Sequence record: AP012530
From: Stx2-converting phage Stx2a_F349
Length of the DNA: 59,872 bases
Direction: 5' to 3' (one strand)
The number at the start of each line of letters is the position of its first letter. Position 1 is the first letter of the stretch. Below, one piece after another: positions 18,001-21,000 of this stretch. The position numbers are program-made.

Positions 18001-21000
18001 TGGAAAGATGGTGAAGAAGGTGCTTATGCGATGGGTTATGAGGATGGGCGTGACAAAACGGTAATTGCAGTAATGAAAGCCATCAGGGCCGCAGGAATCA
18101 AAGAAAAGAATTTCGATTAAGCAAATATCACTTCAATAAATCGCTTTTAAGGCATCACAATCGCTCTGTGGTGAGGTAAGCACGTGCAAGGTATACCGAT
18201 AAGCAGCGAGAATGAAAAATGCGTCAGAATGCGTTTGAGGAGGTTTTAAGAAATGAGTACGATAGCTGAGCTTGTCAGGGCTAATTTTCGTGAAGAGTTG
18301 GTGCGTTGGTATCGGTATCGTTCATCGTCCAGTTTGCCGCTTGATGAGTTGTATGAGCATTCACCTGCCGCACGACGCTATCCGCGTGACCGTGTTCTTC
18401 GACGGTTGTTCAAACTCAACAATGAGTTTCAGCGCAACAGAATTATCCGGAGTCTGGATTTTAAGTGAAGGAGTGAGCATGAGCGACCTATCATTAACCC
18501 AGCCAAAGCTAAAAGAATGTCCGTTTTGCGGCGGTAATGCTCGTCTGTGGGTTGAGGCCGGAATAAATATTGATGTGTGGGGCTATGCAGAATGTGACCT
18601 CTGTGAAGCCAGGGTGGCATGGGCACCATCAGTTGCTGCGGCTACTGAAAAATGGAACCGGAGAGCAGGAGATGAAGCAAACCTTTCTGCTTCGCAACGA
18701 AGCAATCAGAAATAACGCCATAGACGCCATTCTCTCACTACCCATCGACGACAAGTCACCCCACGAAGTCCACGTTAAAGAACCCAAGCGCAGCAAAGCG
18801 CAGAATGACCGCATGTGGCCGATGCTGAACGATGTTTCGCGTCAGGTGCTATGGCATGGTCAACGGCTGGCGCCGGAAGACTGGAAAGACCTGTTCACTG
18901 CCCTGTGGCTTAAGACCAAAAAACTGGAGCAAAGAAGTGCGCCTGGTATCGACGGTGGCGTTGTCATGCTTGGCGTGCGTACCAGCAAAATGCGAAAGGC
19001 CAGCATGACTGAGCTTATCGAAATCATGTTCTGGTTCGGCTCAGAGCGCAACGTGCGGTGGAGTGATGACTCCCGGCGAGAGTATGAATGGTCACAACGA
19101 AAAGGGAAGGCTGCATGACTATCAAATCAAATACGCCAGCACACGACAAGGACTGCTGGCAAACGCCGCTCTGGCTTTTTGATGCGCTGGATATTGAGTT
19201 TGGATTCTGGCTGGATTCAGCTGCGAGCGACAAAAACGCTCTGTGCGCTCACTGGCTAACTGAGGCTGACGACGCGCTAAATTCTGAGTGGATAAGCCAC
19301 GGTGCAATCTGGAATAACCCACCGTACAGCAATATCAGGCCCGTGGGTGGAAAAAGCCGCTGAGCAGTGCATACAACAGCGACAGACGGTAGTGATGCTT
19401 GTGCCAGAGGATATGTCTGTCGGATGGTTCAGCAAGGCTCTGGAGAGTGTTGACGAAGTTCGCATCATCACTGATGGACGGATTAATTTTATCGAACCAT
19501 CGACAGGGCTGGAGAAGAAGGGAAACAGCAAAGGCTCAATGTTGCTGATTTGGCGACCGTTCATCAGTCCTCGACGGATGTTTACTACCGTATCCAAAGC
19601 GGCATTGATGGCGATCGGGCTGGGCGTCAGGAGGGCTGCATGAGGCGACAGCGACGAAGTATCACCGACATCATCTGCGAAAACTGCAAATACCTTCCAA
19701 CGAAACGCTCCAGAAATAAACGCAAGCCAATCCCAAAAGAATCTGACGTAAAAACCTTCAATTACACGGCTCACCTGTGGGATATCCGGTGGCTAAGACA
19801 TCGTGCGAGGAAAACAAGGTGATTGACGTGATGATTTATTCGGGGCTATATTCCTCAAACGCCAGCAAAATCTGGCGTCGGGATTGGCGTCCTGGATAGA
19901 GACCGCGACAGATACACGCCGCGAGCGTGTTTTTTATTGTCGTATGCACGCGCACATCTGAATTATGGTGGGCTGTGTGGGGGCGGAGAGATCCGCGCCG
20001 GTCGGTTTCCCGGTTACGCCAACCCTGCACAGTTCACCACCAGACGATTGGCGTCGTCGGTGGTGAGTTATTAAGAAACCACCAGAGGGCGTCATTATGA
20101 CAACTAAAATTTCTGTTGAAACTCTCTCCCCGATCACCCATAACCAGATTCCTGTTATTACCACCGAACTTTTGGCGCAGCTTTACGGCACTGAGCCGGT
20201 GCGTATTCGCCAGAATCATCATGAGAACAAAGTACGCTTCGTTGAAGGGAAACACTTTTTCAAAGTTGTTGGTAATGACCTTAAAGAATTGCGGGTAGCT
20301 TTAAACTACTCACAAAATTTGCGGGTTACTTTAAGTAACTCACAAAATTTGCGGGTTACTTTAAGTAACTCACAAAATTTGCAACCATCTTTAAGAGGGT
20401 TACAAATTTCCCCGAAAGCCCGCTCCCTCATCCTCTGGACAGAACGCGGCGCAGCCCGTCACGCAAAAATGCTCGAAACCGATCGGGCGTGGGAAGTGTT
20501 CGAAAAACTGGAAGACTGCTATTTCAGCCAGTGCGAGAAAAATACTGGCAAACAAGAGAAGAAGCTCAACGGGCTTTCCGCAAAAGAAACAGACAGCCTT
20601 GTATGGCTGTGGGATTATGCCAACCGCTCACAGGCATTGTTCCGTGAGTTGTATCCCGCATTAAAACTGATTCAGTCTGGCTATTCCGGCATATGCCACG
20701 ACTACGGCTATGAGTTCTCGTATATCATCGGGAGGGCGAGGGGCGTTTTAATTAATCACACGCGGGATATAGATATTTATGAGCCTGACGGGCCGACGAA
20801 CCTTCTGGCATGGGAAAGGCTTAAGAACAAAGAGTTGCCGCCTTCACTGCATCGCTACTGACAATTGACAACTTAACAAACCCAGCTTCGGCTGGGTTTT
20901 TTATTGCTGAATTTTCAATGTGAGAGGACATGACAATGAATGAGCTGATAAATAGCAATGCCATCAAAATGACAAGCATTGAAATCGCTGAGTTGGTGGG

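What the first reader, a model, noticed from the sequence alone, without database searches (positions are those of the whole stretch)
20291..20380. Perfect 30-bp tandem repeats with a palindromic core inside an antirepressor-like gene
Three 30-bp units encode [10 protein letters not shown] repeats. Each unit contains the near-palindrome GTTAC-TTTAA-GTAAC, so the repeats could also act as DNA-binding sites embedded in coding sequence, or allow copy-number variation.
Basis: seen in the sequence. Interest (0 to 1): 0.35.

Follow-up and report, generated by a model that had tools for sequence, protein, structure and literature searches.

The report
Palindromic cassette array in antirepressor gene
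The tandem repeat is a four-unit expansion of a 27-base DNA palindrome that nearly every member of this phage antirepressor family carries at the same spot inside the coding sequence, kept palindromic while its sequence changes, so the copy number varies between phages but the units are very unlikely to be repressor binding sites.

Summary
The repeat is real but not "three perfect copies". It is an in-frame array of four 30-bp units, A-B-B-C (20289-20408), inside a 254-aa Ant-like gene (ORF6N + P22AR_C). Only the two B units are identical.

Copy number varies among homologues, from one to four units. No homologue has three B units.

The main result is that each unit is a near-complete 27-nt palindrome. 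One such palindrome sits at the homologous loop position in 76 of 77 family members from different species.
- The arms covary freely: 85.6% paired against 32-39% in slid controls.
- In some genes the palindrome is read in another frame.
- Flanking synonymous sites are saturated.

It is therefore a nucleic-acid-level feature that dictates a disordered protein loop.

A, B and C each occur alone in other homologues. The array therefore looks like out-of-register recombination or slippage between cassettes.

Best explanation (about 0.5): a hairpin-prone quasi-palindrome maintained by template-switch arm homogenisation, which is slippage-prone and has no binding role. A selected hairpin or cruciform function is not excluded (about 0.3). 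Operators for CI, Cro or Mnt are not supported.

The parts
20097..20861 (+). Ant/AnrP-like gene, 254 aa: ORF6N N-terminal domain (aa 12-125, with a 30-aa insertion relative to the Pfam profile) plus P22AR C-terminal domain (aa 155-226)
   Evidence: ORF list. Pfam scan. 100% identical to the 'putative Ant' gene of Stx2 phage 1717.
20289..20318 (+). Unit A ([10 protein letters not shown]). Palindrome centre at 20302, with 10 Watson-Crick pairs plus 1 G.T out of 14. This is the ancestral position present in all homologues, and it forms the end of helix 59-70 in the model.
20319..20348 (+). Unit B1 ([10 protein letters not shown]). Palindrome centre at 20332, with 12 Watson-Crick pairs plus 1 G.T out of 14.
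20349..20378 (+). Unit B2, an exact copy of B1, with centre at 20362. This is the unit that VT2-Sakai-type alleles lack.
20379..20408 (+). Unit C ([10 protein letters not shown]). Its arms have a different sequence, but 12 of 14 pairs are again complementary about centre 20392.
   Evidence: (I3)
20409..20530 (+). Block encoding [41 protein letters not shown]. It is nearly identical among E. coli phage genes whose 5' halves are only 50-80% identical, which marks a mosaic junction at the array.
19846..19935 (+). isrK-type sRNA (19859-19935) overlapping the c4-a1b1 target motif (19846-19898). A promoter-like site lies at 19823-19852 and a terminator-like hairpin at 19914-19930.
   Evidence: Rfam: isrK 74.7 bits (gathering threshold, GA, 50); c4-a1b1 45.9 bits (GA 46.7). 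Promoter and terminator scan.
19961..20044 (+). C4-type antisense RNA
   Evidence: Rfam RF01695, 66.7 bits (GA 45)
19927..20100 (+). Small leader ORF (57 aa as listed) whose stop overlaps the ant start codon (ATGA at 20097-20100). This matches the orf45-anrP arrangement in Gifsy-1.
   Evidence: PMC4825925.

Best explanation
**What it is (shown).** The array is four in-frame copies (A-B-B-C) of a 30-bp cassette whose 27-nt core is a near-perfect odd palindrome. One such palindrome lies at this position in virtually all members of this ORF6N antirepressor subfamily. These are the Ant/AnrP genes of isrK/C4-controlled, immI-like modules. The position is a poorly ordered loop between a helix and the last strand of the ORF6N domain.

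**It is a nucleic-acid-level feature (shown).**
- Arm sequences differ between homologues but stay complementary.
- In some genes the palindrome is read in another frame.
- Neighbouring synonymous sites are saturated.

**How the array arose (inferred).** A, B and C each occur as the only cassette in other homologues. The array therefore arose by out-of-register recombination or replication slippage between cassettes at the shared junction ...CAAAAT|TTGC.... The perfect B-B pair is a recent slippage duplication. The result is an in-frame minisatellite with 1-4 units among E. coli phages.

**Why the palindrome persists (inferred, the least certain step).** Template switching, intrastrand or across the fork, copies one arm onto the other. 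Mutations are either erased or made 'compensatory'. The encoded loop tolerates almost any sequence and length.

**Consequence.** The palindrome makes the spot hairpin-prone, slippage-prone and recombinogenic. On this reading it is not a binding site.
For: - **Anatomy and rarity of the palindromes:**
- **Copy-number and cassette combinations:** seen in proteins and DNA and in E. coli genome counts.
- **Family-wide conservation:** all 62 regex-parsed species loci have a best loop score of 9-13 out of 13. The background frequency of a score of 10 or more is 80 in 88,537 centres. Fourteen of the 15 further loci that have a looser anchor also carry it.
- **Covariation:** 85.6% of cells are paired, against 32-39% in slid controls. 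There are 242 double-change cells against 31-50, and 12 of 13 pairs show double changes. RNAalifold on an alignment I did not centre finds the same helix.
- **Frame independence:** 7 sequences have the centre at codon position 3.
- **Flanking sites:** synonymous sites are saturated.
- **No RNA strand signature:** G.T 44 against A.C 52. Complementarity also persists at the two centre-proximal pairs, which a hairpin cannot use. Both points favour a DNA-level, strand-symmetric process.
- **Independent expansions:** arrays of 2-5 units occur in Pectobacterium, Citrobacter, Xenorhabdus and Symbiopectobacterium, and each unit is palindromic.
- **Mosaic junction:** sequence histories upstream and downstream of the array are uncoupled.
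- **Protein context:** units B, B and C fall in the low-confidence loop, residues 73-101.
- **Precedent:** template switching maintains inverted repeats in Proteobacteria and creates multinucleotide changes in coding DNA (PMC5941160, PMC8604942).
Against: - Near-universal retention (76 of 77 loci) through saturating divergence is more than has been shown for neutrally maintained inverted repeats. It could instead reflect selection.
- The same mismatches persist across genera, for example C4.A24 and C11.A17, even where a synonymous change would repair them. Arm homogenisation is therefore not very efficient.
- A limited set of inner cores recurs with different outer arms in distant taxa. That suggests conserved cassette types rather than free drift.
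- No rate measurements exist for this sequence.
- The sequences in the covariation alignment were centred on the best palindrome, which inflates the paired percentage somewhat. The slid controls and limit this concern.
Confidence: 0.5

Rival explanations
1. The palindrome is a selected structural element. It could be an mRNA hairpin in the ant coding region, acting as a pause, processing or stability signal in the isrK/C4-controlled operon. It could instead be a DNA cruciform or hairpin recognised by structure, for example a recombination junction for cassette or module exchange. Extra units would then change its strength.
For: - The palindrome is almost universal and shows strong covariation.
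- The array region folds far better than shuffles: RNA -50.2 kcal/mol, z = -5.7; DNA z = -4.4.
- The gene belongs to a conserved RNA-regulated module. isrK and C4 lie upstream here. In 13 of 20 diverse loci C4 or sRNA-Xcc1 (with isrK in 5) or isrK alone does. The Gifsy-1 isrK-orf45-anrP mechanism is described in PMC4825925.
- A mosaic junction coincides with the array.
- Discrete cores recur across taxa.
Against: - G-U pairs are not more frequent than A.C mismatches, 44 against 52.
- Symmetry extends into positions that cannot pair in a hairpin.
- Single units are weak hairpins: -5 to -9 kcal/mol here, with a family mean of -9.7.
- There is no U-tract and no terminator call.
- No Rfam family matches; only sub-threshold miRNA-like noise appears.
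- Complementarity to the isrK/C4 region does not exceed 8 nt.
- Seven of 20 loci have the palindrome without a detectable isrK, C4 or sRNA-Xcc1 RNA.
Confidence: 0.3
2. The palindromes are operators, iteron-like sites embedded in coding sequence, for a dimeric DNA-binding protein such as CI, Cro, Mnt, Roi or the ORF6N protein itself.
For: - Each unit has true dyad symmetry right up to the centre.
- The 30-bp spacing places units roughly on one face of the helix.
- ORF6N/KilA-N domains are predicted DNA binders, and the neighbouring gene is Roi/Rha-like.
- The outer arms fall into a few conserved types: TTGCG...CACAA and AACAG...CTGTT.
Against: - No related site exists elsewhere in the window.
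- The inner arms vary freely between homologues and even between units A, B and C of one gene, so no single protein could read them all.
- If only the outer half-sites were read, nothing would keep the inner 7-8 bp palindromic.
- Identical units occur in Stx phages with different backgrounds.
Confidence: 0.07
3. This is a purely protein-level repeat. A decapeptide loop motif was duplicated for protein function, and the palindromy is incidental.
For: - The units are in frame, and their number changes the length of a surface loop.
- Loop length varies widely in the family: 38-69 residues from the GKHFF motif through the LWTERG motif.
Against: - Synonymous third positions track the partner codon's first base, for example GTT/AAC against GTA/TAC.
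- The same palindrome is read in another frame and gives unrelated peptides.
- Palindromes of this quality are otherwise nearly absent from the window and the loci.
- The inserted units have low model confidence, pLDDT 40-45.
Confidence: 0.03

Closest known systems
Quasi-palindrome template-switch hotspots and conserved inverted repeats in Proteobacteria. Concept from Ripley and from Lovett (my knowledge). Lavi et al. 2018, PMC5941160; Abraham & Hazkani-Covo 2021, PMC8604942.
   Same: Both involve short inverted repeats whose arms are homogenised. This produces multinucleotide, apparently compensatory changes, including inside coding DNA, without any need for adaptive function.
   Different: Here one specific palindrome persists at a homologous codon position across a whole gene family and many genera while its sequence turns over. 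It also multiplies into tandem arrays. Neither behaviour is described in those papers, and the mechanism was not tested here.
Coding minisatellites (VNTRs) of bacterial and phage genes
   Same: Head-to-tail, in-frame 30-bp units, with copy-number polymorphism among close relatives (1-4 units) and a perfect recent duplicate.
   Different: Each unit is itself a palindrome. The units are not simple drifted copies: A, B and C are distinct cassette types that occur singly in other homologues. The observed range is narrow, with no allele carrying more than two B units.
Rickettsia palindromic elements inserted in frame in protein-coding genes (Ogata et al. 2000; cited from memory)
   Same: Palindromic DNA is tolerated inside an ORF and encodes a surface-exposed peptide segment. 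The nucleic-acid feature dictates the protein sequence.
   Different: Rickettsia palindromic elements are 100-150 bp, dispersed and multi-copy in the genome. This element is 27-30 bp, tied to one position in one gene family, and has no other copies in the window.
P1/P7 immI (c4-icd-ant) and Gifsy-1 isrK-orf45-anrP antirepressor modules (PMC4825925)
   Same: The gene context matches: isrK and C4 RNAs upstream, a small leader ORF overlapping the ant start by ATGA, and an ORF6N antirepressor-like product.
   Different: Those descriptions concern the 5' leader RNAs. PMC4825925 never uses the word palindrome, and none of the hairpin passages shown to me concerned the ant coding region. This gene also carries a P22AR_C domain.
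Phage operators and iterons
   Same: Dyad-symmetric sites repeated at a regular spacing.
   Different: The sequence is not conserved between units or homologues, and no matching sites occur in regulatory regions.

Membership tests
ORF6N domain proteins (Pfam PF10543), Bro/KilA-N network | Significant match to the ORF6N profile above the curated cut-off | tested here: met
   66.8 bits against a cut-off of 27.8, E = 2.2e-18. Residues 12-125 align to profile positions 3-86, so about 30 residues are extra, which corresponds to the repeat.
P22 Ant-type antirepressors | P22AR C-terminal domain (PF10548) | tested here: met
   83.3 bits against a cut-off of 22.4, residues 155-226
P22 Ant-type antirepressors | Binds and inactivates a phage repressor | not testable with these tools
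   Only annotation by homology is available. AnrP activity is reported for the Gifsy-1 relative (PMC4825925).
immI-like / isrK-orf45-anrP module | isrK and C4-type RNAs immediately upstream on the same strand | tested here: met
   isrK 74.7 bits (GA 50) and C4 66.7 bits (GA 45) at 19859-20044. The same arrangement holds in 13 of 20 diverse homologous loci.
immI-like / isrK-orf45-anrP module | Small leader ORF translationally coupled to ant (overlapping ATGA) | tested here: met
   ORF 19927-20100 ends in the ATGA at 20097-20100. The coupling itself was not tested.
Coding VNTR / minisatellite | Head-to-tail in-frame units | tested here: met
   TRF period 30, score 153. Register confirmed by translation.
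Coding VNTR / minisatellite | Copy number differs among close relatives | tested here: met
   One to four units are seen. 257 E. coli genomes have a B|B junction and 378 an A|B junction, and none has B-B-B.
Operator / iteron array | Site sequence conserved among units and homologues, and repeated in regulatory regions | tested here: not met
   The arms covary instead of being conserved. No further copies occur in the window.
Operator / iteron array | Specific binding by a regulator | not testable with these tools
   Requires EMSA, ChIP or footprinting
Quasi-palindrome maintained by template switching | Inverted-repeat arms with paired multinucleotide changes | tested here: met
   12 of 13 pairs show changes on both sides. 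242 double-change cells against 31-50 in slid controls.
Quasi-palindrome maintained by template switching | Both sides of a pair change in one event; arm homogenisation measurable; dependence on ExoI/ExoVII | not testable with these tools
   Needs ancestral reconstruction on a dense tree and reporter assays
Structured RNA family | Match to a curated Rfam model | tested here: not met
   Only sub-threshold miRNA-hairpin noise, at most 23.5 bits against gathering scores of 51-195
Structured RNA family | Strand-specific signature: G-U tolerated far more than A.C | tested here: not met
   G.T 44 against A.C 52 among 1,014 cells
Dispersed palindromic elements (REP/BIME, RPE-like) | Many dispersed copies in the genome | tested here: not met
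   No other copies in the 59.9-kb window. In homologous loci the element is always at the same gene position. The host genome at large was not scanned.

The most novel reading that the evidence does not exclude
The 27-nt palindrome is a selected, structure-specific nucleic-acid element that is an integral, previously undescribed part of isrK/C4-type antirepressor modules. It could be a DNA cruciform or hairpin, or an mRNA hairpin. It might act as a pause or processing signal, or as a recombination junction for exchanging loop cassettes. It takes precedence over the protein code, so the antirepressor's variable loop is whatever the palindrome happens to encode. Tandem expansion would then tune its effect.
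Probability: 0.3. Interest if true: 0.75.

Novelty: new variant of a known kind. Interest (0 to 1): 0.6.

Why it matters
As a plain VNTR in a Stx-phage gene this would be a minor typing marker. The wider result is more unusual. A whole family of phage antirepressor genes, across Enterobacterales, Acinetobacter, Chromatium and Burkholderiaceae, keeps a palindrome inside its coding sequence while letting the sequence, the reading frame and the copy number change.

If the palindrome is neutral, this is an unusually clean natural example of a self-perpetuating inverted repeat. Template switching would be shaping protein sequence, generating apparent 'compensatory' and parallel substitutions, and seeding minisatellites. 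That is directly testable with existing quasi-palindrome reporters.

If it is selected, it is an unrecognised cis element in the antirepressor switch that feeds into prophage induction, including Stx phages.

Either way, it cautions against reading covariation as proof of RNA structure, and against reading loop hypervariability as positive selection on the protein.

Tried and rejected
- **Rfam:** the scan of 19500-21800 found no family at the repeats. It did find isrK and C4 upstream.
- **Promoter and terminator scan:** nothing at the array.
- **Antisense pairing:** complementarity between the repeats and the isrK/C4 leader is at most 8 nt, so this was rejected as an antisense target.
- **Other copies:** a search for other copies of the palindrome in the window found none.
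- **Arrays with three or more B units:** an exact scan of IMG/VR gave 0 hits. In E. coli complete genomes the best hits were A+2B+C only.
- **Counting B-B by a 60-nt B+B query:** this failed because a single B aligns twice. I replaced it with a 40-nt junction query.
- **AlphaFold, full length:** 33 sequences gave an unusable model, pLDDT 37. The N-terminal domain with 145 sequences gave a usable core, pLDDT 65.
- **Structure searches:** no PDB sequence relatives. Foldseek against the PDB found nothing significant; the best weak matches were SKI/Dachshund and MBP1-APSES-like folds.
- **Literature:** searches found no description of this hairpin or of this locus as an MLVA marker. The HK022 Roi paper I recalled was not among the 10 papers listed (of 48 matching) in the one search I ran for it.
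- **Considered and rejected on sequence grounds:**
  - CRISPR-like or anti-CRISPR RNA repeats: no spacers and no resemblance to host repeats (comparison from memory).
  - -1 frameshift stimulator: no slippery heptamer upstream.
  - Intrinsic terminator: no U-tract.
  - Tyrosine or serine recombinase core sites: sequence not conserved.
  - Beta-hairpin 'sense-antisense peptide' idea: contradicted by the frame-shifted examples.
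Full report
**1. The observation**

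Reading 20100-20600 and running TRF confirms a 30-bp tandem array at 20289-20382 (3.1 copies, 92% matches, score 153).

It lies in ORF 20097-20861 (+), 254 aa. In codon register there are four units:
- A, 20289-20318, [10 protein letters not shown]
- B1, 20319-20348, and B2, 20349-20378, [10 protein letters not shown]. These two are identical.
- C, 20379-20408, [10 protein letters not shown], which is diverged.

A differs from B at 5 nt. "Three perfect copies" is therefore inaccurate.

The palindrome is larger than reported. Each unit is symmetric about the middle T of TTTAA, which is the second base of the central Leu codon, over 14 pairs. A has 10 Watson-Crick pairs plus 1 G.T, B has 12 plus 1, and C has 12. 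Only five centres in the whole window reach at least 12 of 14 pairs, and four of them are in this array.

**2. The gene and its context**

Pfam assigns ORF6N to aa 12-125, which is about 30 residues longer than the profile, and P22AR_C to aa 155-226. The gene is 100% identical to the 'Ant' gene of Stx2 phage 1717 and is widespread in Stx phages and E. coli prophages. It lies in the nin region, between ninE and roi/ninG.

Rfam finds isrK (19859-19935, 74.7 bits) and a C4 antisense RNA (19961-20044, 66.7 bits) just upstream. A promoter-like site lies at 19823-19852. A small ORF ends in the ATGA that overlaps the ant start.

This is the arrangement of the Gifsy-1 isrK-orf45-anrP operon (PMC4825925), and by my knowledge also of P1 immI (c4-icd-ant). 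Thirteen of 20 diverse homologous loci have an isrK, C4 or sRNA-Xcc1 RNA upstream: 12 have C4 or sRNA-Xcc1, and 5 have isrK.

**3. Copy number**

Among 120 protein clusters and 87 loci, the architectures seen are A only, B only, A+C, B+C, A+B, A+B+C and A+2B+C.

VT2-Sakai has A+B+C. No sequence with three B units exists in IMG/VR or in 5,426 complete E. coli genomes. In those genomes the B|B junction occurs in 257 and the A|B junction in 378. The A|C junction occurs in about 190 records.

Copy number does vary, within a narrow range.

**4. The palindrome is family-wide and nucleic-acid-level**

*Compensatory changes within and near this gene.* A and B differ at five positions, and four of them form two compensatory pairs. 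C has different arms but is again palindromic. Further variants (L052, L060) show more compensatory changes.

*Loop variability.* A search of 1.84 billion representative proteins shows that the segment between the GKHFF and LWTERG motifs is the hypervariable part of an otherwise well-conserved domain. Measured from GKHFF through LWTERG it is 38-41 residues in most members and up to 69, with independent internal repeats.

*Presence across species.* I fetched 80 loci from one genome per species.
- All 62 loci that my pattern could parse carry an odd palindrome at the homologous position, scoring 9-13 of 13 Watson-Crick pairs.
- A score of 10 or more occurs at only 80 of 88,537 background centres.
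- In 33 of the 62 loci it is the best palindrome in the whole 1.5-kb locus.
- Fourteen of the 15 further loci that have a looser anchor also have it. The exception is L115, and three loci had no anchor at all.

*Covariation.* On 65 distinct sequences:
- 85.6% of cells pair, against 32-39% when the 3' partner is slid by 1-3 columns.
- 242 cells show changes on both sides, against 31-50 in the slid controls.
- The covariation score is 0.67 against 0.08-0.12.
- Twelve of 13 pairs show double changes.

RNAalifold on a MAFFT alignment that I did not centre picks the core of the same helix as the only covarying one in 217 columns.

*Frame independence and flanks.* In seven sequences (mostly from Acinetobacter, one from Paraburkholderia and one a minor unit in Symbiopectobacterium) the same palindrome is centred on codon position 3. 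It then encodes unrelated peptides, for example EFATDLKSVANF instead of LRLTISQLQ. Synonymous sites of the conserved flanking codons are saturated across these species.

The constraint is therefore on the nucleic acid, is confined to about 27 nt, and dictates the peptide.

**5. DNA or RNA?**

Three observations bear on this.
- Mismatches show no G-U preference: G.T 44 against A.C 52.
- Complementarity persists at the two centre-proximal pairs (59% and 78% Watson-Crick), which a hairpin loop cannot use.
- Single units are modest RNA hairpins: A -7.3, B -9.4 and C -5.2 kcal/mol, with a family mean of -9.7.

There is no U-tract and no terminator call, and no Rfam family matches. Complementarity to the isrK/C4 leader does not exceed 8 nt.

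These points lean towards a strand-symmetric DNA-level process. They do not exclude an RNA role. The array as a whole folds much better than shuffles (z = -5.7 as RNA, -4.4 as DNA), but tandem palindromes guarantee that result.

**6. Origin of the array**

A, B and C-like cassettes each occur as the only cassette in other homologues:
- A, as [11 protein letters not shown][VI]SPK
- B, as LRVTLSNSQ[NT]PVSPK
- C-like, as [13 protein letters not shown] and NRPSLRGSV

Nearly all combinations of the three exist. The same inner cores recur with different outer arms in distant taxa.

Among E. coli and Salmonella phage genes, identity upstream and downstream of the array is uncoupled. Pairs that are 50-70% identical upstream are about 90% identical downstream. 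Pairs that are at least 97% identical upstream can be only 70% identical downstream. BLAST homology in many phages starts right after unit C, at query positions 307-325.

I infer out-of-register recombination or slippage at the shared junction (...CAAAAT|TTGC...) between cassette-bearing alleles, with B-B as a recent perfect duplication.

Independent arrays of 2-5 palindromic units exist in Pectobacterium, Citrobacter, Xenorhabdus and Symbiopectobacterium. The expansion is therefore a recurrent property of the element.

**7. Protein context**

The N-terminal domain model (145-sequence alignment, mean pLDDT 65) has a confident core at residues 12-72 and 102-141. Residues 73-101, which are units B, B and C, have pLDDT 40-45. 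They form a loop between helix 59-70, whose end is unit A, and strand 110-115.

The full-length model was unusable. No solved relatives were found by sequence, and no significant relatives by fold.

The extra units therefore lengthen a loop that the family tolerates at many lengths.

**8. Explanation and rivals**

*Best explanation (about 0.5).* This is a hairpin-prone quasi-palindrome kept symmetric by template-switch arm homogenisation. That mechanism has been proposed to preserve inverted repeats in Proteobacteria and to create multinucleotide changes in coding DNA (PMC5941160, PMC8604942). It sits in a loop that is free to vary, and it promotes slippage and recombination, hence the in-frame minisatellite.

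The descriptive parts are shown. The maintenance mechanism is inferred.

*Evidence against it.* Retention is near-universal. Specific mismatches persist that a synonymous change could repair. Core types recur across distant taxa.

*Rivals.*
- A selected hairpin or cruciform with a role in the RNA-regulated ant operon or in cassette exchange (about 0.3).
This is contradicted by arm covariation, by the differences between units, and by the absence of related sites elsewhere.
- A purely protein-level repeat (about 0.03). This is contradicted by the frame-shifted examples and by synonymous-site complementarity.

**9. Novelty**

Full-text searches found no description of a palindrome or hairpin in ORF6N or AnrP genes, and none of this locus as a VNTR marker.

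The tandem repeat alone is ordinary. The conserved, covarying, frame-independent palindrome that underlies it appears to be undescribed. I file it as a new variant of known kinds: conserved inverted repeats, quasi-palindromes, and in-frame palindromic elements.

Interest is 0.6.

Noticed in passing
window 19823-20100: An immI-like leader lies upstream of the gene. It has a promoter-like site (TTGACG-18-TATATT, 19823-19852), the isrK sRNA (19859-19935) with a terminator-like hairpin (19914-19930), and the c4-a1b1 motif (19846-19898, just under its gathering score). It also has a C4 antisense RNA (19961-20044) and a small ORF (19927-20100) overlapping the ant start by ATGA. This is the same layout as Gifsy-1 isrK-orf45-anrP.
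   Followed up: partly
window 20409-20530: A block of about 120 nt ([41 protein letters not shown]) is 96-99% identical in many otherwise different antirepressor genes. In phages such as P13374 and ArgO145 the 110-nt core (20421-20530) matches in the opposite orientation. Across genera its synonymous sites are saturated, so the identity in E. coli phages looks like recent recombinational spread.
   Followed up: partly
window 21055-21087 (inside roi, 20930-21658): An inverted repeat, TTCAACTT-11 nt-AAGTTGAA, is centred at 21071 in the N-terminal Rha-like domain of the Roi-like gene next door. It is one of only nine centres in the window with at least 11 of 14 pairs. I did not check whether it is conserved in homologues.
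   Followed up: no
window 56926-56958: The best palindrome in the window (13 of 14 pairs): CAAAAACCGGAGTC-C-GGCTCCGGTTTTTG. It is GC-rich with A and T runs on both sides and looks like a bidirectional terminator.
   Followed up: no
window 39569-40161: A large tandem repeat with a 162-bp period, 3.7 copies and 97% matches (TRF score 1053). It has an internal 75-bp sub-period and is presumably in a structural (tail or fibre) gene.
   Followed up: no
window 56276-56366 and 56205-56328: Repeats of 45 bp and 9 bp rich in GGN-CCN-NNN (GCAGGCCCACAGGGACCAAAAGGAGAA...). They suggest a collagen-like Gly-X-Y segment.
   Followed up: no
window 51078-51105: Four perfect copies of the heptamer TCAGACA. The period is not a multiple of three.
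   Followed up: no
L002 (LC616033.1 23435-24740) and H104 (NZ_CP104645.1): In a group of Stx2a phages the gene's match is spread over 1306 bp in three pieces, and over 1695 bp in one E. coli genome. L002 contains an ORF6N gene with a different cassette (LRTSQRGLQ). This points to tandem or hybrid ORF6N genes.
   Followed up: no
L135 (Candidatus Symbiopectobacterium, NZ_PEHF01000066.1), locus positions about 800-920: The longest array seen: four to five diverged 27-33-nt units (NRVSQRYSV, NKVTNSDFV, NGLTDSQLV, NSMSLRPSV). Each is itself palindromic, with 9-13 of 13 pairs.
   Followed up: partly
window 20878-20899: A strong terminator-like hairpin (AAACCCAGC-TTCG-GCTGGGTTT followed by a T-run) lies between ant and roi.
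   Followed up: no
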